Part shown: one piece after another, positions 2,157 to 53,506 of the stretch
Layout: every line of letters begins with the position of its first letter
Position numbering within the stretch: position 1 is the stretch's first letter
Assembly: GCA_035513335.1 (NCBI GenBank)
Contig: DATKCE010000039.1
Location: 6,861-70,860, forward strand
DNA length: 64,000 nucleotides
Reading direction: 5' to 3'
From: Acidimicrobiia bacterium
GTDB lineage: Bacteria > Actinomycetota > Acidimicrobiia > Spongiisociales > ZC4RG35
Notes under the pieces: model-generated
Seen by the model: the letters and a program-made list of their open reading frames with translations, nothing else
Database searches by the model: none
What the model was told of the DNA's origin: nothing
Made by a program: the position numbers and the translations under genes

Positions 2157-2161
2157 ATCTT

Positions 2162-2209: not shown

Positions 2210-2277
2210 CTTCAGGGGATCAGTTATAGATTCTGTCGAACACGGATGATCCGTCGGCCAAACAGACGCCGGTCCGG

Positions 2278-2293
2278 CGGGGCTTCCGCCCCG
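2278..2293 (-). other. Stable tetraloop hairpin in the rpoB-rpoC spacer
   Basis: Sense-strand CGGGGC-GGAA-GCCCCG (6-bp GC stem, GNRA-type loop). It is followed about 12 nt later by UCUGUUUGG. Function (processing site or attenuator) is unknown. Confidence 0.4.
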
Positions 2294-2340
2294 TGACAAT
2301 TTCTCGATCGGGCACTCTTACAAACAAACGGCTATCTCGA

Positions 2341-2388
2341 TTGCCGGGCGGACTTTGGCCGAGAGCCTCCTCTCGTCCGCCTTCTCTC
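2341..2388 (-). repeat. Structured ~48-nt repeat, copy 2 (179 nt upstream of copy 1 on the sense strand)
   Basis: ttgccgggcggactttggccgagagcctcctctcgtccgccttctctc. Same stem architecture as 2162-2209. The following bases GGCAATCGAGATAGCC resemble the rpoC start context GGCAAAAGATATGGCT. Confidence 0.85.
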
Positions 2389-2482
2389 AACTTGGGGGTC
2401 AAACTCACCTCTCGGAGCTCCCAGCTTCTCGGCCGGCCAAAACAGACGCCCGTCAGCCGGAGCTGCCGCTGCGTGGTTGCAG

Positions 2483-5860
<3,378 letters not shown>

Positions 5861-34843: not shown

Positions 34844-35466
34844 ACGGGCGGCAGGGAGAGCAGGTAGACCACGGTGAAGATGACGATCCAGATGATGTCC
34901 ACGAAGTGCCAGTAGAGGCCGACCAGCTCCAGGTTCATGCCATGCTTCTCGCTCAAGCCCCCTTGGCGCCGGGAGATCCCCCACAGAGAGAGCAGCATGA
35001 TGATGCCGAGCGCGACGTGGGTCCCGTGGAACCCGGTCAGCACGTAGAACGCCGATGCCGCCGGGTTGGTGGACAACGTCATGTCATAGATGGTGATGAA
35101 CTCGTAGAACTCGAAGACCTGGCCCCCGAGGAACACAGAGCCGAGGGCGGCGGTGGCGAAGATCCAGGTCCGCGCCCCGTTCTGGTCCCCCCGGGAGAGG
35201 GCGTGATGGGCCAGGACCATCGTCAGCGACGACATGAGCAAGACGAACGAACTGACCGAGGTGAACGGGATGTCGTAGATCTCAGCCGGGTACACCCCTT
35301 CGAACCCTCCCCGGTTGGAGTAGAGGAGATAGTTGGTGATCAACGCTCCGAAGAAGAGGAACTCCGAGCTGAGGAAGACCCACATCCCCAGCTTGCGGTT
35401 CTCGATGCCGGTCGACTCGTGCTCCTCGTGGTGGGCGACCGGGGCGTCGTGAGCGATGTCACTCAT
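34840..35466 (-). CDS. ctaE: Cytochrome c oxidase subunit III
   Basis: 208 aa, KLGMWVFLSSEFLFFGALI...FHGTHVALG...YWHFVD. Confidence 0.93.
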   Translation of the reverse strand: MSDIAHDAPVAHHEEHESTGIENRKLGMWVFLSSEFLFFGALITNYLLYSNRGGFEGVYPAEIYDIPFTSVSSFVLLMSSLTMVLAHHALSRGDQNGARTWIFATAALGSVFLGGQVFEFYEFITIYDMTLSTNPAASAFYVLTGFHGTHVALGIIMLLSLWGISRRQGGLSEKHGMNLELVGLYWHFVDIIWIVIFTVVYLLSLPPV

Positions 35467-37570
35467 CTGGCACCACCTCTCCGGCCTGCTCCTCGGTGAG
35501 GAAGTCGGCGGTCTCTATCTCGACCCCGCGGAACGCTTCCTCGTCGGCGACGCCCTCTTCGCCCTCATAGTGGTCGCCCTCATCGTGGTCCATGGGCTCT
35601 TCCAGTGGCTCGATGCCCCACCCGATCAAGGCGGCGAGGCTGATCAGCGCTCCAACGACGATCATCGCCTTGCCCCACATGGTCTCGTGATAGATGATCC
35701 CGTAGAAGACGATCGGGATGCCCAGCGCCATCACGATCGGGAAGTAGGACGGCGCCGGCAGATGGATCGGGCTCTTGGGGTTGCGCCCCTCCTCTTCGAG
35801 GCGGGCAAGTAGCTCGTCGGCGTCGGGTTTGCGCACCGCGCGGCCCTCTTCGTCCTCGTCGTACTTCATGTGCCAGAAGTGGTCGAGACGGGTGACCACC
35901 GGCGGCTCGGCGAAGTTGTACTCGGGGGTCGGGTTGGGACTCGTCCACTCCAGCGTGCGCGCGTTCCAGGGGTCGAGACCCGACGGCTCACCGTGACGTC
36001 GGCTGTGATACCAGTTGTACATGAAGACCAGGATGGAGAGGGCGATGGTGAACGCACCGATCGTCACTGCCACGTTCCAGGTCTCCAATCCTGCCCCTGA
36101 CGGGTACTTCCAGGTGCGGCGGACCATCCCTTGCAGACCCAGCCAGTGCATGGGGGCGAAGGTGAGGTTGAAGCCCACGAACATCAGCCAGAAGTGGAGT
36201 TTGCCCAACCTCGGGTTCATCACCCTGGCGGTGAGCTTGGGGAACCAGTAGTAGAGACCGGCGAATATCCCGAACACCGCCCCACCGAAGAGGACGTAGT
36301 GGAAGTGGGCCACGATGTAGTAGGTGTCGGTCTGCTGCCAATCGGAGGGCACGATCGCGTGGGTGACCCCGGAGAGACCCCCGATGGTGAACATGGCGAC
36401 GAATCCGATCGCGAACAGCATCGGGGTGGACAACCACAATCGCCCGCCCCACATCGTCCCCATCCAGTTGAAGATCTTGATCCCGGTGGGGATGGCGATG
36501 GTCATCGTCGCCAGGCCGAACGCGGCCTGGGCCACCGGGGTGACGCCCGACGAGAACATGTGGTGGGCCCAGACCCCGAACCCGAGGAACGCGATCGCCG
36601 CTCCGGCGAAGACCACGGCGGAGTACCCGAATAGCGGCTTGCGGCTGAACACGGGTAGCACCTCGGAGACGATGCCCATCGCGGGAAGGATCAGGATGTA
36701 GACCTCGGGGTGGCCGAAGAGCCAGAAGAGGTGCTGCCAGAGGATGGGATCACCGCCGCCGACTGGTGCGAAGAACAGCGTTCCGAACTGGCGGTCGAAG
36801 GTGACCATGAACAAGGCCACGGCGATGATCGGGAGGGAGAAGAGCAGCAGGAAGGCGACGACGGTCGTCATCCAGGCGAACACCGGCATACGCAGCAGCC
36901 GCATGCCCTTGGCCCTCATGTTGAACACGGTGACGATGAAGTTGATCGCCGAGACCAGGGAGGCCAGGCCGAGGATCTGCAATCCCAGGGCCCAGTAGTC
37001 CATCGCGGTGCCCGGCGAGTACAGAGGGCCGGCGTTGGGCTGATAGCCGAACCATCCCCCGTCCGGGGAGTTGGCGAGGAAATTGAACGATCCCGGTCCT
37101 CCGCCGGCGGCGAGGCTCCCGAAGTTGGCCCCGTCGGGGGAGACCGGAGGCAGGGATGTCCCGAAGATGAAGGTGCTGTAGAGGAAGATGCCGCCGAAGA
37201 AGAAGATCCACCACGAGAGTGCGTTGAGACGGGGGAAGGCGACGTCTCGGGCCCCGATCAACAAGGGGAGCAGATAGTTCATGAACGCCGCCCCCACCGG
37301 CATCACGAACAAGAAGATCATCGTGGTGCCGTGCATGGTGAAGAGGGCGTTGTAGGCACCGGCGGTGAGAAACTCCGCGTCGGCCTGGGTGAGCTGGATG
37401 CGGAGCAGCAGCGCCTCGGTGCCGCCGAGGATGAAGAAGAAGAAGGCGGCGTAGCCGTACATGATGCCGATCTTCTTGTGATCGACGGTCGTGACCCACC
37501 CCCAGAGACCGGTGGTCGACTTGGGACGACGGAAGATGGTCGTGGAGGGGCGTTCTGCCGTGGCGGTCAT
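35459..37570 (-). CDS. ctaD: Cytochrome c oxidase subunit I with a ~125-140 aa C-terminal two-TM extension
   Basis: Trimmed to the ATG at 37570 (MTATAERPSTTIFRRPKSTTGLWGWVTTVDHKKIG), 703 aa. Canonical heme-copper motifs (WFFGHPEVYILILP, HHMF). See the finding on the tail. Confidence 0.93.
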   Translation of the reverse strand: MTATAERPSTTIFRRPKSTTGLWGWVTTVDHKKIGIMYGYAAFFFFILGGTEALLLRIQLTQADAEFLTAGAYNALFTMHGTTMIFLFVMPVGAAFMNYLLPLLIGARDVAFPRLNALSWWIFFFGGIFLYSTFIFGTSLPPVSPDGANFGSLAAGGGPGSFNFLANSPDGGWFGYQPNAGPLYSPGTAMDYWALGLQILGLASLVSAINFIVTVFNMRAKGMRLLRMPVFAWMTTVVAFLLLFSLPIIAVALFMVTFDRQFGTLFFAPVGGGDPILWQHLFWLFGHPEVYILILPAMGIVSEVLPVFSRKPLFGYSAVVFAGAAIAFLGFGVWAHHMFSSGVTPVAQAAFGLATMTIAIPTGIKIFNWMGTMWGGRLWLSTPMLFAIGFVAMFTIGGLSGVTHAIVPSDWQQTDTYYIVAHFHYVLFGGAVFGIFAGLYYWFPKLTARVMNPRLGKLHFWLMFVGFNLTFAPMHWLGLQGMVRRTWKYPSGAGLETWNVAVTIGAFTIALSILVFMYNWYHSRRHGEPSGLDPWNARTLEWTSPNPTPEYNFAEPPVVTRLDHFWHMKYDEDEEGRAVRKPDADELLARLEEEGRNPKSPIHLPAPSYFPIVMALGIPIVFYGIIYHETMWGKAMIVVGALISLAALIGWGIEPLEEPMDHDEGDHYEGEEGVADEEAFRGVEIETADFLTEEQAGEVVPDE

Positions 37571-38631
37571 TCCATGCTCTCCAACCAGACGATGAGGGCG
37601 TCGATCTCCTGCTCGGTCAGCGCCAGGTCGGGCATGAAGCTGCCCGGCTTGATGTGGGGTGGGTTTTCCAACCAGCGCTTCAGCGCCACTTCCCTGGTCT
37701 CGCCGTCCTCGGGGAGGATCGCCCCGGCGAACATGTTGCGTGAGGCGAAGTGGGTCAACTCGGGACCGTTGAACGCCTCTCTCGGGATGAGACGGGACGC
37801 CTCCTCGTCGTCGAAGCGCACCTGGTGACACTGCAGGCATTGCCGGTTGAGATACACCTGGTACCCCTCATAGGTGGGATCACCCTCCTGAGGCAAGATG
37901 GCGGGCTGGGTTTGGTCGGCCAGCCAGCGGTCGTAGTCGGATTGGCTGACCGCCTGCACCCGGGCCCGCATCAACGAGTGAGACAGCCCGCAGAACTCGG
38001 CGCAGTGGCCCCAGTACTCCCCCGGCTCGTCCGCCTGGAGACGGAGCTCGGTGGTCTGCCCCGGGATCAGGTATCGCTTCCCGTTGAGGGCGGGGACCCA
38101 GAAGTTGTGGATCACGTCGTCGGAGGTCATCTGCGCGCACACCTCCTGCCCGGCGGGAATGACCATGACGTTTGCCGTGTAGATGTCAGCCTCGGGGTAG
38201 TAGTACTCGAACCACCACTGGTGCCCGATGATCTCGATCTCCAAGGCGTCCGGGCTGCATTCGGTCAAGTCGAAGATGGACCTGACCGTGGGCACGGCGA
38301 TGAAGGCGAGGATCAAGGCGGGGATCACGGTCCAGAGGACCTCCAGCTTGGGACTGCCGTGGAGCTGCTTAGGCTCGGTGCGACCGTCTCCACCGCGGTC
38401 GCGGAACAAGAAGAGGATGGCTACCAGGCCCCCCATCACGAGGACGAAGACGGCCGTGGCGATCCAGAAGACCAGCCAGAAGAGACCATCGATCTCCTCG
38501 GCGAACGGCCCGGCCGGCTCGAAGGTGGTGAGGGGATTCTCCTCGACCTCGATGATCGCACACGCACTGAGCAGGAATGCAGATCCAACCAGCGCGGCGA
38601 GACGTGTCAGTCGTCGGCGGAACGGGGCCAT
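37567..38631 (-). CDS. ctaC: Cytochrome c oxidase subunit II with a fused C-terminal cytochrome c domain (caa3 type)
   Basis: Trimmed to the ATG at 38631 (MAPFRRRLTRLAALVGSAFLLSAC, lipobox). CuA site HCAEFCGLSHSLM and heme-c site CLQCH. Confidence 0.92.
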   Translation of the reverse strand: MAPFRRRLTRLAALVGSAFLLSACAIIEVEENPLTTFEPAGPFAEEIDGLFWLVFWIATAVFVLVMGGLVAILFLFRDRGGDGRTEPKQLHGSPKLEVLWTVIPALILAFIAVPTVRSIFDLTECSPDALEIEIIGHQWWFEYYYPEADIYTANVMVIPAGQEVCAQMTSDDVIHNFWVPALNGKRYLIPGQTTELRLQADEPGEYWGHCAEFCGLSHSLMRARVQAVSQSDYDRWLADQTQPAILPQEGDPTYEGYQVYLNRQCLQCHQVRFDDEEASRLIPREAFNGPELTHFASRNMFAGAILPEDGETREVALKRWLENPPHIKPGSFMPDLALTEQEIDALIVWLESME

Positions 38632-39471: not shown

Positions 39472-40296
39472 TCAGCCGGAGACTTCCTCCAGGGCGGCGC
39501 GTAGCTCGTCGTCGGAGACCGCTCCCTCGAAGGCGGCGGTGACGGTGCCGGCGGCATTGGTCACGTAGAGCCACGGCTCGGTGAGAAGACCCCACTCCTG
39601 GACTGCCGGGACCAACACCAGATCATCGCGATTGGTGACGTGGATGTTCTCGTACACCTCGACGTGGACATAGTTGAGGTTCGGATACTCGGAGACGAGC
39701 TCCTGGACCTGGTCGAGCATGGGCCCGCACGACTGCGACGTGCACCAGGCCGGAGTGGCGAAGACCAGCACCGACGGCCCAGAGTCGACCGCCTCGGCGA
39801 CAGTCATCTCGTAGAAGAACTCCTCAGGCGTGGGGTCGGAGGTGAGATCGTCGAGCAGTGCGTCGTTGAGGGTTCGGGTCTGCGAGCGTGGAGCCTGATC
39901 GCCCACCTCGACCTGCACGGGGTCGTCGACGGCTACGAAGCCGATCGGTGCCAGCTCCCCGAGGGCGCCGGCGTCGATATCGAGCTGGTACGTCGCCGGG
40001 CCGGGGATGTCGACGTAGAAGGCATAGAGACCGACGACATCGGGAATCGTCCAGAGGAAGCTGCCCTCGTACTCGCCCACGGGGGATCCGATGTCGTCGC
40101 GGAGGATGGCGACCGGAGTGACGTCGGGTGTGGCCACCATCTCTCCGGTGGGCAGGTCGATCACCGCGACCAGGATCCGCTGCTCGCCGGTACCGATCGA
40201 GCCGTGGCTCGAGGCGAGACGGCCAAGGGAGTTCGTCTCGCCGGAGCAGGCGGCGACGGTCGCCGCCATCAAGAACAGGGTTCCAAGCCTCCTCAC
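39472..40296 (-). CDS. Thioredoxin-fold lipoprotein with an atypical CX4C motif
   Basis: Track ORF (524 aa) trimmed to the GTG at 40296 (VRRLGTLFLMAATVAACSGE, lipobox). C-terminal Trx-like region VLVFATPAWCTSQSCGPMLD. GTGA overlap with the ctaB stop. Confidence 0.75.
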   Translation of the reverse strand: MRRLGTLFLMAATVAACSGETNSLGRLASSHGSIGTGEQRILVAVIDLPTGEMVATPDVTPVAILRDDIGSPVGEYEGSFLWTIPDVVGLYAFYVDIPGPATYQLDIDAGALGELAPIGFVAVDDPVQVEVGDQAPRSQTRTLNDALLDDLTSDPTPEEFFYEMTVAEAVDSGPSVLVFATPAWCTSQSCGPMLDQVQELVSEYPNLNYVHVEVYENIHVTNRDDLVLVPAVQEWGLLTEPWLYVTNAAGTVTAAFEGAVSDDELRAALEEVSG

Positions 40297-41192
40297 ACCA
40301 GCACGTCCAGCATCACTGCGGCGAACAGAGCCGACAGGTAGACCGTCGAGGTGGTGAACAGACGCATTGCCTCCTCCGGATGGCGCACCACCCTCCACGT
40401 GTCCCAGAGGAACCAGGCTCCGAGAACGAGCGCCGCTATCAGGTAGATCCAAGACATGCCCCCCAGAGGAACCAGGAGCAGCGAGACTCCGACCATCAGC
40501 CCGGTGTAGAGCAACATCCTCCGTGTCGTGGCCTCGACCCCGGCCACCACGGGCAGCATCGGCACCCCGGCCGCGGCATAGTCGTCCTTGTATCTCAGGG
40601 CCAGCGCCCAGAAATGAGGCGGCGTCCAGTAGAAGACGATGAGGAACAGGACCCAAGCAGGCAACCCGACCGTCCCCGACACCGCAGCCCAACCGACCAG
40701 GACCGGAGCGGCCCCGGCCGCACCTCCTATCACGATGTTCTGCACCGAGGACCGCTTCAGGGTCATCGTGTAGACAAAGACGTAGAAGAGGAGGGCTGCG
40801 ATGGCGATCACACCGGCGAGGAGTGTGGTTAAGGCCCAGAGCCAGGCGAAGCCGAGGGCACCGAGGACGACCCCGAAGACCAACGCGTGCCGTGGCGCCA
40901 CCTCGTGTCTCGCCAGTGGCCGGGTCCGGGTGCGACGCATGACCTCGTCGATATCGCGGTCGTAATACATGTTCAGGGCGTTGGCACCACCTGCCGAGAG
41001 GGTTCCTCCGATCAAAGTGGCCACGACCAGCCATGTCCCCGGCCACTCGCCGGCAGCCAGGACCATCGATGGCAGGGTCGTGATCAGGAGCAGTTCGATG
41101 ATCCGCGGCTTGGTGAGAGCCACGTAGGCACCGACCCTGGTACGGGCGCCGGGGGAACCGTCGATTGCGGCTGGGTGGTGGAGTTCTGTCAT
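40293..41192 (-). CDS. ctaB: Protoheme IX farnesyltransferase (heme O synthase)
   Basis: Trimmed to the ATG at 41192 (MTELHHPAAIDG..), 299 aa. NMYYDRDIDEVMRRTRTRPL and YWTPPHFWALAL motifs. Confidence 0.93.
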   Translation of the reverse strand: MTELHHPAAIDGSPGARTRVGAYVALTKPRIIELLLITTLPSMVLAAGEWPGTWLVVATLIGGTLSAGGANALNMYYDRDIDEVMRRTRTRPLARHEVAPRHALVFGVVLGALGFAWLWALTTLLAGVIAIAALLFYVFVYTMTLKRSSVQNIVIGGAAGAAPVLVGWAAVSGTVGLPAWVLFLIVFYWTPPHFWALALRYKDDYAAAGVPMLPVVAGVEATTRRMLLYTGLMVGVSLLLVPLGGMSWIYLIAALVLGAWFLWDTWRVVRHPEEAMRLFTTSTVYLSALFAAVMLDVLV

Positions 41193-42484
41193 CCGGAGAG
41201 AATCAATAGTGCGAGGCTGGTCAGGGCGATCATCAGTACGAGCATCGCATACTGGGATCGGCCCGCCCCACCCCCGAAGTCCTGCAACGAGCGATCGTGG
41301 GCGAGAACGACCCCTGCGAGATGCCCCCCGACGATAAACGCCACCTGGGACAACCAGACAGGGGTCGAGGTGCGGATGAAGAAGTCGACCCGGTAGTCGG
41401 AGGTGCCGAATAGGTCCCAGCCGAGACCGAACGGATCCGACAGGGCGGCAACCATCTGCTGGCCTTCGAAAAGGACGAGGGTGAAATAGTGGGAGAGGGC
41501 GTAGGCGAGCCCGATCGGGATGAGGGTGTGGGCAAAGCGCTGCGCCACCTCCAGTGGCCGCCACCCACCCCCCGACAGCCGGGCGGCGATGGCGCAGGCC
41601 AGGTAGTAGCCGAGGGCGACCACGGCGACAGACACCAGCAGCAGGACCGTGCGTCCCCCCGTGGTGTCGACCAGGCCTCCACCGAGGGCCCGAAGCCACT
41701 CGGAGCCCACGGCCCCGTCATAGGAGACCGTGGCGATCATGACCACGGCGAAGACCCACAACCCGGGCCATTCCGGGATCACGGCGAGAGCGCGCAGCCA
41801 GCCGCGCCACACCACCTCGCCGTGCCGATTCCGGCCCAGCGGTGATATCGCCGAGATCAACCTGTTGTACGGGGTGAAGAAATCGAAGACCGCCAGACCG
41901 GACTCCCGGCCGGCCCACGACATCGCCCCGAGCAGGAAGACCGTGTAACCGAGCACGACGAATCCGAGCGTCGTGGGGTCGCCGGGGTGGGGGCTGACCA
42001 GCTCGAACCAGGCGAAGGCCAGGAACACCACAGTCGCCGGCCACAGGCCGACGGTGTGTGGAAGGCCGATCCGCTCCTGGTTGCCGATTCCGAGCCCCCG
42101 GGCCAAGGTGCGCCATGGGTTGAGATCGGCATACCAGTTACCGATGACGGCACTCGTTATTGGCACCACCAGCCAAAGCGCGACCCAGACGGCGACGGGA
42201 GCCACGGTGGGTCGGATACGGGACCGCTCCATGCCGAGCAATGGAGGCACCACCTGGCCGATGACCAGGAGTAGCCCGACGAGGCCAACAGCGGCGAGGA
42301 CGGTCCGGGTGGGCACGCGAACCGACGCCCCGTCATACCTGGGCCCGTCCTGGAATCGTGGTCTGGTCCAGAGCATCCCCAGGGCGACGAAGCTGACCAC
42401 CAGCACAGCCGCCGCACCCACGACCAGGATGGATACGGGCAGGGGCAGATCGGACCGCCCGCCGATCCCGTGGGCCAGGATCAT
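41189..42484 (-). CDS. Polytopic membrane protein of unknown function
   Basis: 431 aa, about 12 hydrophobic segments, N-terminus MILAHGIGGRSDLPLP. ATGA overlaps on both sides. Confidence 0.75.
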   Translation of the reverse strand: MILAHGIGGRSDLPLPVSILVVGAAAVLVVSFVALGMLWTRPRFQDGPRYDGASVRVPTRTVLAAVGLVGLLLVIGQVVPPLLGMERSRIRPTVAPVAVWVALWLVVPITSAVIGNWYADLNPWRTLARGLGIGNQERIGLPHTVGLWPATVVFLAFAWFELVSPHPGDPTTLGFVVLGYTVFLLGAMSWAGRESGLAVFDFFTPYNRLISAISPLGRNRHGEVVWRGWLRALAVIPEWPGLWVFAVVMIATVSYDGAVGSEWLRALGGGLVDTTGGRTVLLLVSVAVVALGYYLACAIAARLSGGGWRPLEVAQRFAHTLIPIGLAYALSHYFTLVLFEGQQMVAALSDPFGLGWDLFGTSDYRVDFFIRTSTPVWLSQVAFIVGGHLAGVVLAHDRSLQDFGGGAGRSQYAMLVLMIALTSLALLILSG

Positions 42485-42906
42485 CCGACCACCCGGATGT
42501 CGAAGAGATGGATGTGACCGGTGTGGACCTCGACCTCGAAGACGCCGGGGACATCGGCTACGAAAGTCACGTGGAATGGCGTCCCCCCACTCATCTCGAA
42601 AGTCAGGTCGTAGCCGTGGACGTGGATCTCGCCGTCGGTGTCGGAGAGCACCGACACGTCCACGGTGGCTCCGAGGTCGACCTCGATCACATCGGGTCCT
42701 TCGACTTCACCGCCGCGGACCTGCACGAGAGTCGCCTCGATCGTCGTGGTCGTGGTGGAAGACGCGGTGGTGGTCCGATTCGGGCCCACGGTCTCCGTCG
42801 TCGACGGTGACACGGCCGTCGAAGTGGTAGCGGTGTCGACCTGGGCGCCTGATCCGCAGCCCATCACGGCCAACATGAGGAATGCGGCGACAGCCCTACC
42901 GGTCAT
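42481..42906 (-). CDS. Lipoprotein with a His-rich beta-sandwich (cupredoxin-like?) domain
   Basis: 141 aa. Lipobox LAVMGC, a Thr/Ser-rich linker, then EIHVHGYDLTFEM...PGVFEVEVHTGHIHLFDIRV. The fold assignment comes from memory of similar sequences and was not tested. Confidence 0.7.
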   Translation of the reverse strand: MTGRAVAAFLMLAVMGCGSGAQVDTATTSTAVSPSTTETVGPNRTTTASSTTTTTIEATLVQVRGGEVEGPDVIEVDLGATVDVSVLSDTDGEIHVHGYDLTFEMSGGTPFHVTFVADVPGVFEVEVHTGHIHLFDIRVVG

Positions 42907-42963
42907 GGCGAAACGCTAGAGGAGCGGGCGGGTTGTCAGGCAACGTGCCTCTAGTCTCCCCCT

Positions 42964-45546: not shown

Positions 45547-46449
45547 CTAACCGAGGAATTCGCGGAGCTCGTCCAACACGCGCTCGGTATGGGTCCAGAC
45601 CAGTTCGTGCCCGGCTCCTTCCACCTCGACCAGCTTGGCGTCGGGTATGGCCGAGGCCAGCTGATACTGCCAGCGAGGTGGAACCAGGAAGTCACCGGTC
45701 GGCACCATCACCATCGTCTCGGTCTCGAGCCTCCCCACCCAGTCAGTGGAATCGAACCGCAGCAATGCGAAGGTCGCCTGGGCGCCACTCTCGACGTCGC
45801 GACGAAGGGTCTCCCGCCACACCCATCGGGCATGTTCAGCCTGCACCGCTCCGGTAGCGATCAGATAGCCGCTGCGAACCTCCGGGGTGCCGAAACCGCT
45901 GATCCTCTCCCACCCTCTGGTCAGGACGGCACCGATCCATCTCGCCCATCGGTAGCCCTGGGAGTGGCTGGCGAACGCAGCGATCAACACCAGTTTGCGA
46001 ACCCGACCCGGATGACTCATCGCCAGCGCCTGAGCGATGACACCTCCCATCGAGTACCCGACCACGTCGACCTTGCCGATGCCCAGCGCGTCGAGGACAC
46101 CGGCCAGGTCATCCGCATCGTCGGCGACCTCGAACCGGAGGTCGCCACGTGCCGAGAGCCCGTGGCCCCGGTGATCGACCATGACGACCCGGCGGTCGAC
46201 CGCCAGCGTGGGCGCGATCTGGTACCACTCGGTGAGAGAGGCACCTGCCAACCCGTGCACGAGGAGGACGGGGACACCCTGATGGGGCCCCATCTCCCGC
46301 ACCAGGTATTCCTCATCTCCAACGAAGACGGTGCGGCCGGGGACCCGCAATGGGTGCTCCTGCGGCGGCCTGAACTCCGGCTGCCACCGCGGGCCGAACA
46401 ACCTCCAGAGGAGTGCGACCATTACCGCCCACTTGACCCACCTGATCAC
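45547..46449 (-). CDS. Alpha/beta hydrolase with an N-terminal membrane anchor
   Basis: 300 aa. HGLAGAS oxyanion region and the nucleophile elbow GYSMGG. GTGA overlap with the upstream ferredoxin-like gene. Confidence 0.85.
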   Translation of the reverse strand: MIRWVKWAVMVALLWRLFGPRWQPEFRPPQEHPLRVPGRTVFVGDEEYLVREMGPHQGVPVLLVHGLAGASLTEWYQIAPTLAVDRRVVMVDHRGHGLSARGDLRFEVADDADDLAGVLDALGIGKVDVVGYSMGGVIAQALAMSHPGRVRKLVLIAAFASHSQGYRWARWIGAVLTRGWERISGFGTPEVRSGYLIATGAVQAEHARWVWRETLRRDVESGAQATFALLRFDSTDWVGRLETETMVMVPTGDFLVPPRWQYQLASAIPDAKLVEVEGAGHELVWTHTERVLDELREFLG

Positions 46450-46868
46450 TTGAGGTCACCGACGACGAAAGACAACTCGTCGACGGGACGACCTGCGATG
46501 AGGTGCTCGTCGATGATCCGGTCCAGCTTCTCGAGATCTAGGTTGGCGTACCAGGTGCCCTCGGGATAGACGACGGCGATCCCCCCCTGCTCACAGATGC
46601 GGAGGCAGTCTGCCTTGGTCCGGAGCACCGTGCCGGTTCCGGGCTCCACCGGCTCGGGCTCGTGTTCCATGTCCCCTTGCCACTCCGGTGGTGCCGATGT
46701 CGCCTCCAACTGCTTCAGCCTGCTCTTCAGGTGGACCCACAATCGGTTGGTCTCTCCCCGCGGGGCGCACTTCGGGTTCGTCTGGTCGGCACAGAGGAAG
46801 ATGTGCCGGTGCACCCTGGGTATGGAGAGGGACTCGGCTATCTGAATCAGGCGTTGGTCGGGATTCAC
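46446..46868 (-). CDS. Thioredoxin-like [2Fe-2S] ferredoxin-domain protein
   Basis: Trimmed to the GTG at 46868 (VNPDQRLIQIAESLSIPRVHRHIFLCADQTNPKCAP...ADCLRICEQGGIAVVYPEG), 140 aa with four Cys in the typical pattern. Confidence 0.7.
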   Translation of the reverse strand: MNPDQRLIQIAESLSIPRVHRHIFLCADQTNPKCAPRGETNRLWVHLKSRLKQLEATSAPPEWQGDMEHEPEPVEPGTGTVLRTKADCLRICEQGGIAVVYPEGTWYANLDLEKLDRIIDEHLIAGRPVDELSFVVGDLK

Positions 46869-46876
46869 CGGGACAG

Positions 46877-47899
46877 TTAAGTCACCCGGATGACCTTCTC
46901 GGCAGTGACCCGGCCGATGGTGACGGCTCCGGGCACTGCAGCCAGGTACACGTCGACCCGCTCGGAGGGCAATGTCACGAGGAGGCCGCCTGAGGTCTGG
47001 GCGTCGATCAGCGGCTTCACCAGGTCGATGTGGTGCTCGGTCTCCAACTCGGGCATGATCGCGGTCAGGTTTCTCTGCGAGCCTCCGGCCCACATCCCGG
47101 CGATGAGTAGCTCGGATACCCCTTCCAGGAGCGGAACCGACGCCAGATGCACCTCGGCGCCCACGTCAGATGCCCGGCACACCTCGAGTAGGTGGCCGAG
47201 CAGCCCGAATCCGGTGACGTCGGTGGCGGCTGTGGCCCCCGCGGTCTTCAGGCCCCGTCCGGCCACGGCGTTGAGGGTGGCCATCACCTCGATCGCCTGC
47301 CGGGCGAGCCGAGGAGGGCAGGCTCCCCGCTTTATCGCCGTGGTGACTATCCCCATCCCGAGCGGTTTGGTCAACACCAGGGAGTCACCGATCTTGGCGC
47401 CGGCGTTGGTGACGACGTCACCGGTGACCGCAGTCCCGGTGACCGCGAAACCGTAGGTCGGCTCCGGTCCGTCGATGGAGTGGCCTCCGACCACCGTGCA
47501 GCCGGCATCGGCCATGACGTCCATCCCGGCGGCAATCACGTCGGCGGCGATGTCGAACGCCAGCTCGTCCCGTGGCCAGGCCAGATACTGGAGAGCGGTC
47601 AGGGGAGTGCCGCCCATCGCATAGACATCGGAGAGGGCGTTGGCGGCGGCGATCCTGCCCCAGTCGCGCGGTGAGTCGACGACAGGGGTGAAGATGTCCA
47701 CCGTCTGGATCAGGGCGCGCCCATCTCCCAGCGCGAACACGCCGGCATCGTCGCCGGTCCTGATCCCGACGATCAGGTCGGGATGGGAGACGGCAACATG
47801 GTCTTGTACGGGACCCAGTACCTGGGCCAGCTCAGCGGCGCCGAGCTTGCAGGCTCAACCGGCCCCGTGGCTGTACTGAGTGAGACGTATCTCCGTCAC
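46877..47899 (-). CDS. selD: Selenide, water dikinase (selenophosphate synthetase) with an in-frame TGA at the Cys/Sec active-site position
   Basis: The track gives only 46877-47740. The same frame continues upstream to the GTG at 47899: MTEIRLTQYSHGAG-TGA-ACKLGAAELAQVLGPVQDHVAVSHPDLIVGIRTGDDAGVFALGDG... This is colinear with the E. coli SelD N-terminus (IRLTQYSHGAGCGCK). The rest is canonical SelD (GRIAAANALSDVYAMGG). Confidence 0.85.
47821..47857 (-). other. Putative Sec codon (UGA, 47857-47855) plus a candidate SECIS stem-loop
   Basis: Sense RNA after the UGA: GCCUGCAAGCUCGGCGCCGCUGAGCUGGCCCAGG. Inner stem AGCUC/GAGCU, extendable with G-U and GC pairs, nested in CCUG/CAGG. It begins 2-8 nt after the UGA. 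Confidence 0.55.
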
Positions 47900-47933
47900 C
47901 CGGCCAGGTTAAGTCGCCTGGTCGTGGCAGGGG

Positions 47934-48341
47934 TCAGGCGGCTGCCGATGTGGTGGCCACAGCGTCCCGGGTCATCTCCAGGCGGGCCCTCACATCCTCG
48001 GCGATCACGTGCACGCGTCTCTCCCCCACCAAGTCCATCATCACAGCGGGATCCATGAAGTCGACCACCACGCCCTCGCCGTCGGCACGTACGACCACGT
48101 TGCATGGCAAGAGAACGCCGATGGCGGGCTCGCTGGCGATGACGGTCCTGGCGTACTCCGGGCTGCATGCCCCGAGGATCAGATAGGGATCGTGTTCGAC
48201 GTCGAGCTTCTCTGCGAGGATCGCCGCGACGTCGATCTCACTGACTATCCCGAACCCGTTGTCTGCGAGTGCCTGCTTGGTTCGGGTCACCGCTGAGTCG
48301 AACCCCTCGTTGACGGTCACGCTGAAGTGATACGACGCCAT
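47934..48341 (-). CDS. DUF302-domain protein
   Basis: 135 aa, GFGIVSEIDVAAILAEKL...PYLILGACSPEYA...IGVLLPCNVVV pattern. Confidence 0.8.
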   Translation of the reverse strand: MASYHFSVTVNEGFDSAVTRTKQALADNGFGIVSEIDVAAILAEKLDVEHDPYLILGACSPEYARTVIASEPAIGVLLPCNVVVRADGEGVVVDFMDPAVMMDLVGERRVHVIAEDVRARLEMTRDAVATTSAAA

Positions 48342-48465
48342 CTCATCTCCCTGTAGTCGAAGTGACCTCGAAGGTAAGCCCGAGGGCGTCGGGCCGGTAG
48401 AGACGAACGTCCCATGAGAAGGGGACCTACGGAAATGGCGCCGCGACGCCGAGGTCCCTGATCAT

Positions 48466-48942
48466 ATGAGTGGAGAAAGGATCACAGTGATCACCGAACA
48501 CGATTACCACGTGACCGTCACCGGAACCGGGCCGAAGACCGGGACACTGAGTGCGCCCAAGGACCACCTGCCCGAGATGGCGTTCGCTTCCCCGCCTGAG
48601 TTCGGCGGGCCGCCCCACACCTGGAGCCCAGAGCACCTCTTCGTCGCCTCCCTGGCCACCTGTCTGATGACGACGTTCCAGGCGATGGCAGCCAACTCGG
48701 GGATGGAGGTCCTCGAGTACCGCGACCATCCCACAGGCCATCTGCAGCAGGCCGACAACGGTCTCTATTCGATCGATCGTGTGGTGCTGCGTCCCACCGT
48801 CGTCATCTCGGCGGAGTCGAAGATCGACCGCGCCCATCGGCTCCTGGACAAGGCGGAGCATGTGTGTCTGATAGGGAGATCGGTCAACTCGGAGACCATT
48901 CTCGAAGCGACGGTCCTCCAGCCTCACCAGGTGGGCACGTAA
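48466..48942 (+). CDS. OsmC/Ohr-family peroxiredoxin-like protein
   Basis: 158 aa, SPEHLFVASLATCLMTTF and AEHVCLIGRSV (two conserved Cys). Confidence 0.85.
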   Translation: MSGERITVITEHDYHVTVTGTGPKTGTLSAPKDHLPEMAFASPPEFGGPPHTWSPEHLFVASLATCLMTTFQAMAANSGMEVLEYRDHPTGHLQQADNGLYSIDRVVLRPTVVISAESKIDRAHRLLDKAEHVCLIGRSVNSETILEATVLQPHQVGT

Positions 48943-49931
48943 GACCTCAATGTCTTCATGTACCCCGTTCTCTCGAACACCTCGGGATCCGGCACCGACG
49001 AGTAGCTGAGGCTCCCCCGGGCCTGGTCGACCGACTCGTAGTCGTGCTCGTCCAGCCATCGTGCCATGCCGTCCCTGACCTCGGTCAGACGTGAGGCCCC
49101 ATGCCTGAGCAGCGCCGAAGCCATCATGGTCACGTTGGCCCCCGCCAGCACGGCCTTGACTGCGTCCTCGGCGACATGCACGCCCGAGGTCGCAGCCATG
49201 TCGCAGTCGACTCGCCCGTACAGGATCGCCATCCAGCGCAGGACCAGTCTCAGCTCCACCGGGTCGGACAGGACGAGGTTGGGCTTCACGCCCAGAGTCT
49301 CCAGATCGATGTCCGGCTGGTAGAACCTATTGAACATCACGAGAGCATCTGCGCCCGCGCCGGTCAGGCGTCTGGCCATGTCCGGGACCGATGAGAAGTA
49401 GGGGCCGATCTTCACCGCCAGGGCCAAGTCCACCGACCCCTTGACCTTCTCGACCAGGTCGACATAGGACTTCTCTACATCCGCCGAGGTCAGCCTGACA
49501 TCGGATGGGAGCCGGTATACGTTCAGCTCGAGTGCGTCGATCCCCTGGTCGGCGAGGATCTGGGCGTACATCGTCCAGCCACCGGTGGAGACACCATTGA
49601 GGCTGGCGATAACGGGGATTTGCAGCTCGGCCTTGGCCCTCCGGATCAGCTCGATGTAGTCCTCGGGGCCGGTGTTGTAGTCGTCGAGCTCGGGAAAGAA
49701 TCCCTCCGCCGCTTCTCCGAAGCCATCGGCACCCATCTCCAGGGTGTAGTGAACGGCCATGGCATCGTGCTCGATCTGCTCCTCGAAGAGGCTAGGAAGG
49801 ACAATGGCAGGCGCGCCCGCCTCGACCAGGGCATGGATGTGGTCGATGTCCCCGGTCAACGGTGACGCCGAGGGCACGATCGGATGGTTCAACTCGAAGC
49901 CCAGATACCGTGTGCTCAGGTCGACTGTCAC
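48924..49931 (-). CDS. Dihydroorotate-dehydrogenase-like (class 1 DHOD/DPD fold) protein
   Basis: 335 aa TIM-barrel flavoprotein pattern (IVPSASPL...IASLNG...MFNRFYQPDIDL..ATSGV). GTGA overlap with the PFOR stop. Confidence 0.8.
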   Translation of the reverse strand: MTVDLSTRYLGFELNHPIVPSASPLTGDIDHIHALVEAGAPAIVLPSLFEEQIEHDAMAVHYTLEMGADGFGEAAEGFFPELDDYNTGPEDYIELIRRAKAELQIPVIASLNGVSTGGWTMYAQILADQGIDALELNVYRLPSDVRLTSADVEKSYVDLVEKVKGSVDLALAVKIGPYFSSVPDMARRLTGAGADALVMFNRFYQPDIDLETLGVKPNLVLSDPVELRLVLRWMAILYGRVDCDMAATSGVHVAEDAVKAVLAGANVTMMASALLRHGASRLTEVRDGMARWLDEHDYESVDQARGSLSYSSVPDPEVFERTGYMKTLRSYVPTW

Positions 49932-52900
49932 TCCTCAACCTCCTCATCCTCTGAGAACACCGCGGTCCGGTGGACTGCCACCATTTGTTCGTAGAGGTGC
50001 CAGCGGTCATCGATGTCCTGCTGCGCCCTGTCCATGAGCTGGTCGGCGCCCTCGGGATCGATCCGGCCCAACATGGCGAATCGGGCCTCGGTGGCTGCGA
50101 AGTCCTTGAAGCGGATGGAGGGCCTCCTGCTGTCGAGACGCAGTCCCGGTTCGCCCGCCGCCTCACGTGCCGGGTCGTAACGATAGAGAGGCCAGTAGCC
50201 CGAGTCGCTCGCCGCCTTCTGATGCCCGAGCTGGTGCTTCAGGTCGTACCCATGGGCGATGCAGGGGCTGTAGGCGATGACGAGCGAGACTCCTCGATGG
50301 CCCTCGGCTTCAGCGAGGGTCTTGACGGTCTGATTCGGATTCGCCCCCATGGCGATCTGTCCGACGTACACGTTCCCGTACGACATGGCGATCTGACCGA
50401 GGTCCTTCTTGCCGGTGGTCTTGCCCCCGGCGGCGAACTTGGCGATCGCGGCGCGCGGCGTCGCCTTGGACGCCTGTCCTCCGGTGTTGGAGTACACCTC
50501 GGTGTCGAGCACCAGGATATTGATGTTCCGGCCCGAGGCGAACACGTGGTCGAGCCCGCCGAATCCGATGTCGTATGCCCAGCCGTCGCCACCAACTATC
50601 CAAACGCTGGTCTCGATCAGAGAGTCAGCAACACCCACCAGCCTCCGGGGGAGGGGGCCCTCCAGCTCCTCCAGCCTCTCCTTCAACGCGCTCACGTTCT
50701 TACGCTGACGATCGACGAGAGACTCGATGTCGGAGTAGTCGGGATTCTCGACCTGGTCCAGGATCTCCACTGCCAGCTCCCCGAGCTCGGGGGCGAGCGC
50801 CGTGACCAGGAGAACCGCGTCCTGTCGTTGGGTCTCCATGGCGAGACGCATACCCAACCCGAACTCGGCGTTGTCCTCGAAGAGGCTGTTGGACCAGGCC
50901 GGCCCCTGGCCGTCGTCGTTGGCGGCCCAGGGGGTAGTGGGCAGGTTCCCTCCATAGATCGAAGAGCAGCCGGTGGCATTGGCCACGATCATCCTGTCGC
51001 CCATCATCTGCGTGATCAGCTTCAAGTATGGGGTCTCACCGCAACCGGCACAGGCTCCGGAGAACTCGAACAGGGGCTGGAGCAACTGGGTGCCCTTCAC
51101 CGACTGAGCGTTGACCTGGGATCGGTCCATCTCGGGGATCTCGAGGAAGTAGGAGAAGTTGCGGCGCTCCCGGTCCAGGTGCTCACCCTTGGGCTCCATG
51201 TTGATCGCTTTGTGCCTCACCACCTCCTTCGACTTGGCAGGACACACTTCCACACAGACACCGCACCCGGTGCAGTCGTCGGGAGCGACCTGGATCACTA
51301 TCCGCAGGCCTCTCAGGTCCTTCCCTGTCGACTCCTTCCACAGGAACCCGTCAGGAATGGGAACATCGGGCTCGAATGCCTTGAACCTGATGGCGGCGTG
51401 GGGACAGACCAGGGCACAGCGGCCGCAGTCGATGCAGAGGTCGGCGTCCCAGATCGGTATCTCGTCGGCGATCGATCGTTTCTCCCATATGGCGGTGCCG
51501 GTGGGGAACGCCCCGTCGACCGGGAGTGCGGATACGGGGAGCAGGTCGCCCTTTCCCGCCATCATCATCGCGGTGACCCGCTTGACGAAGTCGGGGGCGA
51601 TCTCGGGCACCGGGTCGGCAATCCTCTGCATGCTGTCGGCTGCGCCCGGCTCGACCCGGAACAGCCCCCCGATGGCCCGGTCGACCGCCTCCTCGTTTCG
51701 ACTCACAACCGCCTGGCCGCGACTGCCATAGCTCTTGCGTATGTGTTCCTTGATGGCGATCACGGCCTCGTCGGTGTCGAGAAAGTCACTGAGATGGAAG
51801 AAACAGGTCTGGAGAACCGTGTTGATCCGGCCCCCGAGACCGGCGTCCCTGGCGATGGCGGCAGCATCGATGGCCCATACGGTGAGCTCCTTGGCGAGGA
51901 CCTGTCGCTGCGCCTCGACCGGGAGACGATCCCAGATCTCCTCGGACGGGTACGGGCTGTTCAACAGCACCGTTCCGCCGGGTCGGGCCAGCTCCAAGAC
52001 GTCGATGGTCTCCAGGAAGTCGAACTGGTGGACAGCGACGAAGTCGGCCTCGGTGATGAGATAGGTCGACTCGATGGGGCGCGGTGAGACCCTCAGGTGG
52101 GACACCGTTCGAGAGCCCGCCTTCTTCGAGTCGTAGACGAAGTAGCCCTGTGCGTAGAGGGGGGTCGACTCACCGATGATCTTGACCGAGTTCTTGTTGG
52201 CACCGACGGTCCCGTCGGAGCCCAGGCCGTAGAACACCGCCCGGACCACTTCGTCAGGTTCGGTCCACGAGCTCGGGTCGTAGTCGACGGAGGCGTTGGT
52301 GACGTCGTCGAAGATGCCGACGGTGAAATGACGTCTCGGCTCGGCGTTCACCGCCTCGGCGAACACTCCAAGCACCATGGCGGGGGTGAACTCCTTCGAG
52401 GACAGCCCGTACCTGCCCCCGATCACGTCTGCGCTGACACCTGCCTCGGCCAGCGCCGAGACCACGTCCTGGTAGAGCGGCTCACCGACCGCCCCCGGCT
52501 CCTTGGTCCGATCCATGGCCACGACCCGCCTCACCGTCTCGGGGAGGCAGTCGACGAAGGCGTCGACATCGAACGGCCGGTAGAGGTGGACCTCGACGAC
52601 CCCGACCTTCTCTCCGTTGCCGACCAGCTCGTCTACTGCCTCCCTGGCCGCCCCGGCCCCCGATCCCATGATCACCATGACAGTCTCGGCGTCCGGAGCG
52701 CCGTGATATTCGAACAAGTGGTAGCGGCGGCCGGTGGTCTCGGCGACCTGTTCCATCGCCCTGGCCACGATCTCGGGAATGGCTTCGTAGTACGGGTTGG
52801 ATGCCTCCCGAGCCTGGAAGAAGACGTCGGGGTTCTGCGCAGTTCCGCGGAGAGTCGGTGAGTTCGGGTTGAGGGCGCGTAGGCGATGTTCTGCGATCAG

Positions 52901-53506
52901 GTCCTCATCGACGAGTGAGCGAATCGTCGACTCGTCGATGATCTCGATCTTGGTGACCTCATGAGACGTCCGGAACCCGTCGAAGAAATGGAGAAATGGC
53001 AACCTCGCCTCGAGGGTGGCGAGATGGGCCACGAGGGCCAGATCCTGGGCCTCTTGAACCGAACCGGATGCCAGCATGGCGAATCCGGTCTGGCGCGCTC
53101 CCATCACGTCGGAATGGTCTCCGAAGATCGACAGGGCGTGCGTGGCCACCGTGCGCGCCGCCACGTGGATCACCACAGGTGTCAACTCACCGGCGATCTT
53201 GTACATGTTGGGGAGCATCAGCAGCAGGCCCTGGGAGGCGGTGAAGGTGGTGCTCAGCGCTCCCGAGCTGAGCGCCCCGTGGACCGTCCCGGCCGCGCCG
53301 GCCTCGCTCTGCATCTCGACCACGTCGGGGACGACCCCCCACAGGTTTGGTCTTCCGCTGTGTGACCAGGCGTCAGCGAGCTCTCCCATCGGTGAGGCGG
53401 GGGTGATCGGATAGATGGCGATGACCTCGCTGAGGAGATGTGCCACCCTGGCCGCTGCCTCATTGCCGTCGACCGTGGCGAACACGGGCGCGGTGATGTC
53501 ACTCAT
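49928..53506 (-). CDS. nifJ: Pyruvate:ferredoxin (flavodoxin) oxidoreductase, single-polypeptide type
   Basis: 1192 aa. Two ferredoxin motifs (CIDCGRCALVCPHAAI, CTGCGVCVEVCP) and the TPP site GGDGWAYDIGFGGLDH. Confidence 0.95.
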   Translation of the reverse strand: MSDITAPVFATVDGNEAAARVAHLLSEVIAIYPITPASPMGELADAWSHSGRPNLWGVVPDVVEMQSEAGAAGTVHGALSSGALSTTFTASQGLLLMLPNMYKIAGELTPVVIHVAARTVATHALSIFGDHSDVMGARQTGFAMLASGSVQEAQDLALVAHLATLEARLPFLHFFDGFRTSHEVTKIEIIDESTIRSLVDEDLIAEHRLRALNPNSPTLRGTAQNPDVFFQAREASNPYYEAIPEIVARAMEQVAETTGRRYHLFEYHGAPDAETVMVIMGSGAGAAREAVDELVGNGEKVGVVEVHLYRPFDVDAFVDCLPETVRRVVAMDRTKEPGAVGEPLYQDVVSALAEAGVSADVIGGRYGLSSKEFTPAMVLGVFAEAVNAEPRRHFTVGIFDDVTNASVDYDPSSWTEPDEVVRAVFYGLGSDGTVGANKNSVKIIGESTPLYAQGYFVYDSKKAGSRTVSHLRVSPRPIESTYLITEADFVAVHQFDFLETIDVLELARPGGTVLLNSPYPSEEIWDRLPVEAQRQVLAKELTVWAIDAAAIARDAGLGGRINTVLQTCFFHLSDFLDTDEAVIAIKEHIRKSYGSRGQAVVSRNEEAVDRAIGGLFRVEPGAADSMQRIADPVPEIAPDFVKRVTAMMMAGKGDLLPVSALPVDGAFPTGTAIWEKRSIADEIPIWDADLCIDCGRCALVCPHAAIRFKAFEPDVPIPDGFLWKESTGKDLRGLRIVIQVAPDDCTGCGVCVEVCPAKSKEVVRHKAINMEPKGEHLDRERRNFSYFLEIPEMDRSQVNAQSVKGTQLLQPLFEFSGACAGCGETPYLKLITQMMGDRMIVANATGCSSIYGGNLPTTPWAANDDGQGPAWSNSLFEDNAEFGLGMRLAMETQRQDAVLLVTALAPELGELAVEILDQVENPDYSDIESLVDRQRKNVSALKERLEELEGPLPRRLVGVADSLIETSVWIVGGDGWAYDIGFGGLDHVFASGRNINILVLDTEVYSNTGGQASKATPRAAIAKFAAGGKTTGKKDLGQIAMSYGNVYVGQIAMGANPNQTVKTLAEAEGHRGVSLVIAYSPCIAHGYDLKHQLGHQKAASDSGYWPLYRYDPAREAAGEPGLRLDSRRPSIRFKDFAATEARFAMLGRIDPEGADQLMDRAQQDIDDRWHLYEQMVAVHRTAVFSEDEEVEE

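What the first reader, a model, noticed from the sequence alone, without database searches (positions are those of the whole stretch)
46877..47899. selD carries an in-frame TGA exactly at the catalytic Cys/Sec codon, so it is a probable selenoprotein truncated in the ORF track
The ORF track starts selD at 47740, which would delete the essential N-terminal glycine-rich active-site loop. Reading the same minus-strand frame upstream gives GTG(47899) MTEIRLTQYSHGAG-TGA(47857-47855)-ACKLGAAELAQVLGPVQDH...DDAGVFALGDG with no other stop. The motif LTQYSHGAG[C/U]xCK is the SelD signature, in which many bacteria encode selenocysteine. A GC-rich stem-loop (AGCUC-loop-GAGCU nested in CCUG/CAGG) begins a few nt after the UGA, where a bacterial SECIS is expected. 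Sec decoding is patchy in Actinomycetota. A Sec-containing SelD would imply a full selABC machinery and further selenoproteins elsewhere in this genome.
Basis: partly seen in the sequence, partly recalled or inferred. Interest (0 to 1): 0.72.

Follow-up and report, generated by a model that had tools for sequence, protein, structure and literature searches.

The report
Selenocysteine-type selD, truncated by ORF calling
The gene for selenophosphate synthetase (selD) in this probable Acidimicrobiia genome has a UGA at its catalytic codon that is almost certainly read as selenocysteine, which is a real but well-known kind of gene that ORF finders routinely cut short.

Summary
On the minus strand, GTG 47899 opens a 340-codon frame that ends at TAA 46877. 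Its only internal stop is TGA 47857-47855, which aligns with catalytic Cys17 of E. coli SelD. All seven close syntenic orthologues whose DNA I read (73-97% identity) keep TGA, the GTG start and the 14 upstream codons. 45 of the 120 nearest database SelD proteins are N-terminally truncated gene calls. TGA is otherwise the normal stop here (26 of 33 genes). A 7-bp hairpin with a GUA loop lies 33 nt after the UGA (47828-47812). It meets the published bacterial SECIS criteria and shows compensatory changes. It is 93% paired in UGA-type genes, but only about 2.9 of 7 pairs form in Cys-type genes. However, its proposed outer CCUG/CAGG pairing competes with the better-supported second hairpin. No selA, selB or tRNA-Sec lies in the window, so the machinery in this genome is inferred, not shown. 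Sec-type SelD is the second most widespread prokaryotic selenoprotein family and is already reported in Acidimicrobiia. This is an ordinary new member of a known kind.

The parts
46877..47899 (-). Full-length selD coding sequence: GTG start, UGA (Sec) at codon 15, 340 codons, TAA stop
   Evidence: TIGR00476 selD 369 bits and PF00586 + PF02769. Aligns to E. coli SelD residues 5-319.
47897..47899 (-). GTG start codon, the only start between the in-frame TAA (47911-47909) and the UGA
   Evidence: GTG occupies the same position in all seven close orthologues. An in-frame TAA lies 4 codons upstream in the window and six of those seven (L084 reads TTA there).
47855..47857 (-). UGA codon 15, the proposed selenocysteine codon, aligned with catalytic Cys17 of E. 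coli SelD
   Evidence: TGA sits at the same codon in 13 of 80 genome loci and in all 7 close orthologues read.
47829..47847 (-). Hairpin H1 (nt 11-29 after the U of UGA): AGCUCGGC-GCC-GCUGAGCU. It is probably the lower or accessory part of the SECIS region.
   Evidence: -11.0 kcal/mol. 92% of cells paired in 19 Sec-type sequences, mostly through one-sided changes. It is also partly present in Cys-type genes (3.9 of 6 pairs against 5.5 of 6).
47812..47828 (-). Hairpin H2 (nt 30-46): GGCCCAG-GUA-CUGGGUC, the proposed SelB-binding apical hairpin of the bacterial SECIS. Loop G37-U38-A39 lies at 47821-47819.
   Evidence: -9.4 kcal/mol. 93% paired with compensatory changes at 33/43, 36/40 and 30/46. 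RNAalifold predicts it independently. 6.5 of 7 pairs in Sec-type genes against 2.9 of 7 in Cys-type genes.
46877..47740 (-). The truncated 287-aa ORF given by mechanical ORF calling. It lacks the Gly-rich catalytic loop.
   Evidence: Database entry P0002 (97% identical, 287 aa) has the same artefact.

Best explanation
This is a functional selD gene (selenide, water dikinase) of the selenocysteine type. Translation starts at GTG 47899. [quoted passage not shown] The main binding site is hairpin H2 at 47828-47812, whose G-U-A loop starts 33 nt after the UGA. Hairpin H1 (47847-47829) lies between the UGA and H2. Selenocysteine is inserted at residue 15 of the Gly-rich loop SHGAG-U-ACK, and translation continues to give a 340-aa enzyme that makes selenophosphate. 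What is shown: the codon, the frame, family membership, conservation of the UGA, the start and the upstream codons, and conservation and covariation of H2. What is inferred: decoding by SelB and tRNA(Sec), because those genes are not in the window.
For: The frame is intact and the UGA aligns with Cys17 of E. coli SelD. The motifs DDAGV, VDIFTP, NALSDVYAMGG and TDVTGFGLLGH are all conserved. TGA is the ordinary stop codon in this window (26 of 33 genes), so there is no genetic-code change. All seven close orthologues read (73-97% identity; L081, L084-L089) carry TGA at the same codon, all at the same greA-flanked selD/140-aa/hydrolase locus. 45 of the 120 nearest database SelD proteins are N-terminally truncated calls, and the other 75 are full-length Cys-type proteins. 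In the 13 codons upstream of the TGA, pairwise differences within the clade are 86 synonymous against 47 non-synonymous. H2 shows 93% pairing, and pair 33/43 is G-C in 9 sequences and C-G in 8. Further compensatory changes occur at 36/40 and 30/46. The covariation score exceeded all 500 shuffles and all slid controls. RNAalifold finds H2 unaided. Cys-type genes do not keep H2 (2.9 of 7 pairs against 6.5 of 7; Mann-Whitney p = 1e-10). This includes L073, which has the same peptide, AELAQVLR, but non-pairing codons. Cys-type L093 sits at the same syntenic locus and has a decayed hairpin (4 of 7). Cys-type L092 nests among Sec-types and keeps a relic (6 of 7). H2 meets all four published bacterial SECIS criteria (PMC13188914, Fig. 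2 legend): loop of 3-9 nt, stem of 4-16 bp, G then G or U at the start of the loop, 16-37 nt spacing, and MFE of -7.5 kcal/mol or lower. Its CAGGUACUG core resembles the SelB-binding CAGGUCUG of E. coli fdhF. The Sec trait is documented in other Acidimicrobiia (PMC5029168 supplements; bioRxiv 10.64898/2026.04.03.716425).
Against: The window contains no tRNA-Sec, selA or selB, and none lies in the flanks of the Sec-type Acidimicrobiia loci. No Rfam SECIS model matches, although those models cover bacterial SECIS poorly. The local fold is not more stable than shuffled sequence. The H2 columns are also constrained by the peptide AQVLG/R, so part of the conservation is protein-level. The 19 sequences are related, so the shuffle control overstates significance. 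There are no expression, proteomic or selenium-labelling data.
Confidence: 0.9

Rival explanations
1. The gene is a pseudogene. A TGC-to-TGA nonsense mutation at the catalytic Cys codon has inactivated selD, and the open frame on both sides is simply not yet decayed.
For: TGC to TGA is a single-base change. The closest genome-collection relatives (L001-L004, 57-67% identity) carry TGC or TGT. No Sec machinery is seen in the window.
Against: The TGA is shared by all seven close orthologues and by lineages from four other groups. There is no frameshift or second stop in 340 codons. The upstream codons evolve under purifying selection. A hairpin specific to the TGA forms shows compensatory changes.
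Confidence: 0.03
2. The UGA is read through without the Sec machinery, for example by near-cognate Trp or Cys insertion. Alternatively, a shorter protein starts downstream of the UGA, and the conserved hairpins only slow the ribosome or reflect codon constraints.
For: The SelB dependence is inferred, not shown. H1 is partly explained by the codons for K-L-G...E-L and also occurs in Cys-type genes.
Against: The UGA sits exactly at the residue that is Cys or Sec in every SelD. H2 satisfies the SelB-type SECIS criteria and resembles the fdhF apical loop. A protein starting downstream would lack the loop carrying the Cys/Sec and Lys residues that align with E. coli Cys17 and Lys20. The downstream starts chosen by gene callers differ from one orthologue to the next, so none is conserved.
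Confidence: 0.05
3. The TGA is a sequencing or assembly error in this window.
For: None specific.
Against: The same codon is present in independent assemblies from NCBI, ENA, JGI and Logan.
Confidence: 0.01

Closest known systems
E. coli SelD (selenide, water dikinase; PDB 3U0O)
   Same: It has the same two-domain AIR-synthase-like architecture and the same N-terminal motif LTQYSHGAG-x-xCK. The aligned metal- and ATP-binding motifs are also shared. phmmer gives E = 5e-79 over residues 3-319.
   Different: E. coli has Cys17 (TGC) where this gene has UGA. E. coli selD needs no recoding element.
Sec-type SelD of other bacteria, including Actinomarina in class Acidimicrobiia
   Same: UGA at the catalytic position of selD is a known polymorphism. 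The preprint credits its first description to Guimaraes et al. 1996. Sec-type selD was reported in about half of Actinomarina genomes, where Rfam SECIS models also failed (bioRxiv 10.64898/2026.04.03.716425). SelD is described as the second most widespread prokaryotic selenoprotein family (PMC13188914).
   Different: This is a different, high-GC (65%) Acidimicrobiia-like lineage, with its own conserved greA/selD/140-aa/hydrolase neighbourhood, extended in some relatives by a PFOR/DUF302 block. The SECIS of this clade is mapped here by covariation, which the preprint did not do.
E. coli fdhF SECIS (SelB-binding apical hairpin)
   Same: It is a hairpin inside the coding sequence 3' of the UGA. 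Its loop exposes G-G-U and is closed by A-U and C-G pairs. fdhF reads CAGGUCUG and the window reads CAGGUACUG.
   Different: The G-G-U lies at nt 36-38 here and at nt 22-24 in fdhF, which is 14 nt further from the UGA. A separate 8-bp hairpin (H1) fills the gap. No bulged U is evident. Binding by SelB is untested.
Cys-type SelD at the same syntenic locus in sister lineages (L093, L092)
   Same: These have the same 340-aa length, the same neighbouring genes, and 73-74% identity.
   Different: They carry TGC at codon 15. H2 is decayed in L093 (4 of 7 pairs) and partly retained in L092 (6 of 7), which nests among Sec-types.

Membership tests
SelD (selenide, water dikinase; TIGR00476) | Score above the curated equivalog cut-off, with AIRS N- and C-terminal domains | tested here: met
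   TIGR00476 369.3 bits (cut-off 125). NF002098 338.9 bits (cut-off 299). PF00586 and PF02769 both match.
SelD (selenide, water dikinase; TIGR00476) | N-terminal Gly-rich loop with the catalytic Cys or Sec and a Lys three residues later (E. coli Cys17 and Lys20) | tested here: met
   SHGAG-[UGA]-ACK. Residue 15 aligns with Cys17 and residue 18 with Lys20 of 3U0O.
SelD (selenide, water dikinase; TIGR00476) | Conserved Asp and Asn motifs of the ATP and metal site | tested here: met
   GDDAGV, TVDIFTP, NALSDVYAMGG and TDVTGFGLLGH align with the identical or conservative E. coli motifs.
Bacterial selenoprotein gene (UGA decoded as Sec) | In-frame UGA at a position that is Cys in homologues, conserved as UGA in orthologues, with coding conservation on both sides | tested here: met
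Bacterial selenoprotein gene (UGA decoded as Sec) | bSECIS consensus (PMC13188914, Fig. 2): 3-9 nt apical loop, 4-16 bp upper stem, G in the first two loop positions (usually G then G or U), 16-37 nt between the UGA and the loop, MFE of -7.5 kcal/mol or lower | tested here: met
   H2 has loop GUA (3 nt), a 7-bp stem, 33 nt spacing and -9.4 kcal/mol, and is supported by covariation. H1 alone fails the spacing criterion (13-15 nt) and has loop GCC.
Bacterial selenoprotein gene (UGA decoded as Sec) | tRNA-Sec (selC), selA and selB present in the same genome | not testable with these tools
   None is in the 64 kb window. The source genome was not among the collection hits. Other Acidimicrobiia do have the trait.
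Bacterial selenoprotein gene (UGA decoded as Sec) | Selenium actually incorporated at the UGA position | not testable with these tools
   This needs 75Se labelling or mass spectrometry.
Rfam SECIS families | Covariance-model match at or near the gathering score | tested here: not met
   There was no hit at gathering thresholds in the window and no SECIS hit at E up to 10 in 47750-47900. The element is therefore not filed under any Rfam SECIS family.

The most novel reading that the evidence does not exclude
The most novel reading not excluded is that Sec-type SelD is the main or only selenoprotein in this aerobic Acidimicrobiia-like lineage. The costly Sec machinery would then be kept chiefly to make the enzyme that supplies its own selenium donor. 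At one syntenic locus the catalytic codon differs between UGA and UGC among close relatives, and L092 carries a relic SECIS. This gives a natural series for timing Sec/Cys conversions and SECIS decay. The H1+H2 arrangement is shared by Actinomycetota and Gemmatimonadota selD, and H2 also by Bacillota; Dormibacterota (L028, L042) keep H1 but not H2. This arrangement would be a selD-specific SECIS class with the SelB-binding loop unusually far from the UGA.
Probability: 0.15. Interest if true: 0.4.

Novelty: new member of a known kind. Interest (0 to 1): 0.2.

Why it matters
The main value is for annotation. The 287-aa ORF should be replaced by a 340-aa selenoprotein with U at residue 15. The same correction applies to many public metagenome proteins: 45 of the 120 nearest database entries are truncated in the same way. 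The finding also predicts that this organism decodes selenocysteine, so other UGA-interrupted genes should be looked for in the rest of the genome. The mapped hairpin (47828-47812) gives a concrete, mutable target for testing Sec insertion in this lineage. It does not change what is known about selenium biology.

Tried and rejected
- **Rfam:** gathering thresholds over the whole window and E up to 10 over 47750-47900 gave no SECIS or tRNA-Sec match. This is uninformative, because bacterial SECIS elements are poorly modelled there.
- **ARAGORN:** no tRNA at all in the window or in 17 related loci.
- **Single-sequence folding:** the region after the UGA folds no better than shuffles (z = -0.49), so thermodynamics alone was rejected as evidence.
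It overlaps H2 and scores -19.1 against -22.3 kcal/mol for the two-hairpin model. It was rejected as the main structure, although it could be an alternative conformer. In the two Dormibacterota sequences (L028, L042), H2 does not form and the nested model fits better.
- **Search for selA and selB:** NCBIfam scans of about 40 window ORFs and tblastn with E. coli SelA and SelB found none in the window. These genes lie next to selD only in other lineages, which are mostly Cys-type actinomycetes plus the Sec-type Bacillaceae locus L043.
- **Scan for other UGA-interrupted coding frames:** only ordinary gene boundaries were found. The crude composition filter also missed selD itself, because its upstream part is short, so this is a weak negative.
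- **The genome-collection scan** did not return the source genome (best hit 67% identity), so the rest of the genome could not be examined.
- **A genetic-code change** was rejected, because TGA terminates 26 of 33 genes.

Full report
**1. The observation**

On the minus strand the sequence reads GTG (47899-47897), then 13 codons, then TGA (47857-47855). The frame then stays open to TAA (46879-46877). This gives 340 codons plus the stop. An in-frame TAA at 47911-47909 makes GTG 47899 the only possible start upstream of the TGA.

**2. The gene**

With Cys placed at the UGA, the 340-aa product scores 369 bits against TIGR00476 selD (cut-off 125). It carries the PF00586 and PF02769 domains. Against solved structures it aligns end to end with E. 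coli SelD (3U0O, E = 5e-79).
- Residue 15 falls on Cys17 and residue 18 on Lys20.
- The motifs DDAGV, VDIFTP, NALSDVYAMGG and TDVTGFGLLGH are conserved.
- There is no frameshift and no second stop.
- TGA is the normal terminator in this window (26 of 33 confidently identified genes), so a changed genetic code is not the explanation.

**3. Relatives**

A scan of one genome per species returned 80 loci. The source genome was not among them. The best matches (57-67% identity) are Acidimicrobiia MAGs.
- At the aligned codon, 62 loci have TGC or TGT and 13 have TGA. In 5 loci the motif scan found no match.
- The TGA loci come from Acidimicrobiia, Nitriliruptoraceae, Gemmatimonadales, Dormibacterota and one Bacillaceae genome.

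The large protein collection holds much closer relatives.
- Of the 120 best hits, 75 are full-length Cys-type proteins, mostly 340 aa and 64-74% identical.
- The other 45 are N-terminally truncated calls of 287-323 aa. Their start points vary, and they include the closest hits at 97%, 89% and 80% identity.

I fetched the DNA for seven truncated entries (L081, L084-L089).
- All have TGA at the same codon and a GTG start at the same place.
- All keep the upstream peptide V-x-E-x-R-L-T-x-Y-S-H-G-A-G.
- Within this clade, pairwise differences in the 13 codons before the TGA are 86 synonymous against 47 non-synonymous. This is the pattern of a translated segment.
- All lie at the same greA-flanked locus, selD followed by a 140-aa gene and an alpha/beta hydrolase. 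Where enough upstream sequence is held, some (L084, L085, L088) also carry the PFOR, DHODH-like, OsmC and DUF302 genes seen in the window; the others do not.

A pseudogene or a sequencing error cannot explain this pattern.

**4. The RNA element**

Nucleotides are numbered from the U of UGA, so nt n lies at window position 47858 - n. Two adjacent hairpins follow the UGA.
- H1 spans nt 11-29 (47847-47829): AGCUCGGC-GCC-GCUGAGCU, -11.0 kcal/mol.
- H2 spans nt 30-46 (47828-47812): GGCCCAG-GUA-CUGGGUC, -9.4 kcal/mol.

That is the single-sequence MFE fold, but it is no more stable than shuffled sequence (z = -0.49).

I tested the models on an ungapped alignment of 19 distinct UGA-type sequences.
- The two-hairpin model is 92.7% paired, against 25-42% when the partners are slid.
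- H2 carries the covariation. Pair 33/43 is G-C in 9 sequences and C-G in 8. Pair 36/40 is G-C, C-G, A-U or G-U. Pair 30/46 also changes on both sides.
- The 33/43 change links a synonymous third position (Ala GCG or GCC) to an Arg/Gly first position (CGN or GGN).
- RNAalifold, given no hint, returns the H1 core plus H2.
Its covariation is not above shuffles. It also competes with the 5' arm of H2. In the window, the two-hairpin model scores -22.3 kcal/mol and the nested model -19.1.

The strongest control is the comparison with Cys-type genes.
- Across 62 Cys-type loci, H2 forms 2.9 of 7 pairs on average. Across the 19 Sec-type sequences it forms 6.5 of 7 (Mann-Whitney p = 1e-10).
- The local MFE is -2.9 kcal/mol against -9.9.
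- L073 encodes the same peptide, AELAQVLR, but uses codons that do not pair.
- L093 is Cys-type at the same syntenic locus and has 4 of 7 pairs.
- L092 is Cys-type, but its nearest neighbours are Sec-type. It keeps 6 of 7 pairs, as expected for a recent UGA-to-UGC change.

H2 meets all four criteria of the published bacterial SECIS consensus (PMC13188914, Fig. 2 legend).
- The apical loop is 3 nt (allowed 3-9 nt).
- The stem is 7 bp (allowed 4-16 bp).
- The loop starts with G followed by U.
- The spacing from the UGA is 33 nt (allowed 16-37 nt), and the MFE is below -7.5 kcal/mol.

H1 alone fails the spacing criterion. The H2 core CAGGUACUG resembles the SelB-binding CAGGUCUG of E. coli fdhF, read here from the E. 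coli genome, but lies 14 nt further from the UGA. In two Dormibacterota sequences H2 does not form and the nested fold fits better, so the architecture is not universal.

**5. What could not be shown**

The window holds no tRNA, no Rfam match and no selA or selB. A crude scan found no other UGA-interrupted coding frame. The flanks of the Sec-type Acidimicrobiia loci also lack these genes. [quoted passage not shown] It rests on the conserved UGA and the SECIS, and on the published record.
- Ilumatobacter (10-15 selenoproteins) and Candidatus Microthrix (7) have SelD, SelA and SelB (PMC5029168 supplements).
- All 84 complete Actinomarina genomes have selA, selB, selC and selD, and about half carry a Sec-type selD (bioRxiv 10.64898/2026.04.03.716425).

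**6. Comparison with what is known, and verdict**

UGA at the catalytic codon of selD has been known since 1996, as cited. SelD is described as the second most widespread prokaryotic selenoprotein family, and Sec-to-Cys reversions are documented for it (PMC13188914). The gene passes every SelD membership test that could be run, and every sequence-level selenoprotein test. The in-genome machinery and actual selenium incorporation remain untested.
- This is a correct and well-supported finding.
- It is an ordinary one: a new member of a known kind.
- Its practical value is correcting the annotation, here and in many truncated public entries, and flagging the organism as a probable Sec decoder.

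Noticed in passing
window 46446-46868 (-): A 140-aa gene starts 8 nt after the selD stop. It has a C-x6-C ... C-x3-C pattern and a weak match to the C-terminal half of thioredoxin-like 2Fe-2S ferredoxins (NF041612, E = 1e-11, below cut-off). It has no Pfam hit. It lies immediately downstream of selD in every relative examined, both Sec-type and Cys-type, so it may be a functional partner of SelD.
   Followed up: partly
window 47934-53506 (-), and OsmC-like ORF about 48418-48942 (+): A block encoding pyruvate:ferredoxin oxidoreductase (1192 aa), a dihydroorotate-dehydrogenase-like protein, OsmC and DUF302 lies between greA and selD. It is present in the window, L084, L088 and L093. It is absent from L081, L086, L087, L089 and L092, where greA lies close to selD. 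It looks like a block of about 5.6 kb that has been gained or lost.
   Followed up: partly
window 41192-42484 (-) and 42484-42915 (-): Two ORFs of 431 aa and about 145 aa have no Pfam or NCBIfam match. They are conserved as neighbours of the heme O synthase gene in all syntenic relatives. The surrounding 39.4-42.5 kb stretch also fell below the GC3 filter used for gene picking.
   Followed up: no
window 40293-41699 (-): The mechanical ORF is 468 aa, but the heme O synthase match starts at residue 185 and relatives aa. The listed start is probably too far upstream.
   Followed up: no
window 35459-37840 (-): The cytochrome c oxidase subunit I ORF is 793 aa, and its family match is split into two stretches. 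Relatives-703 aa. Either the start is over-extended or there is an unusual N-terminal extension.
   Followed up: no
locus L092 (JGI 3300036837), selD at 3001-4023: This Cys-type selD (TGC) has Sec-type genes as its nearest neighbours. It still keeps 6 of the 7 pairs of the SECIS hairpin, so it looks like a recent Sec-to-Cys conversion with a relic SECIS.
   Followed up: partly
protein hits P0001-P0120: 45 of the 120 nearest public SelD proteins are N-terminally truncated gene calls with seven or more different arbitrary starts. This is a systematic mis-annotation of Sec-type selD in metagenome protein catalogues.
   Followed up: partly
window 3-5860 (-): The rpoB gene and the 5' part of rpoC lie at the left end of the window. 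They would be good markers for placing the organism taxonomically. This was not done.
   Followed up: no
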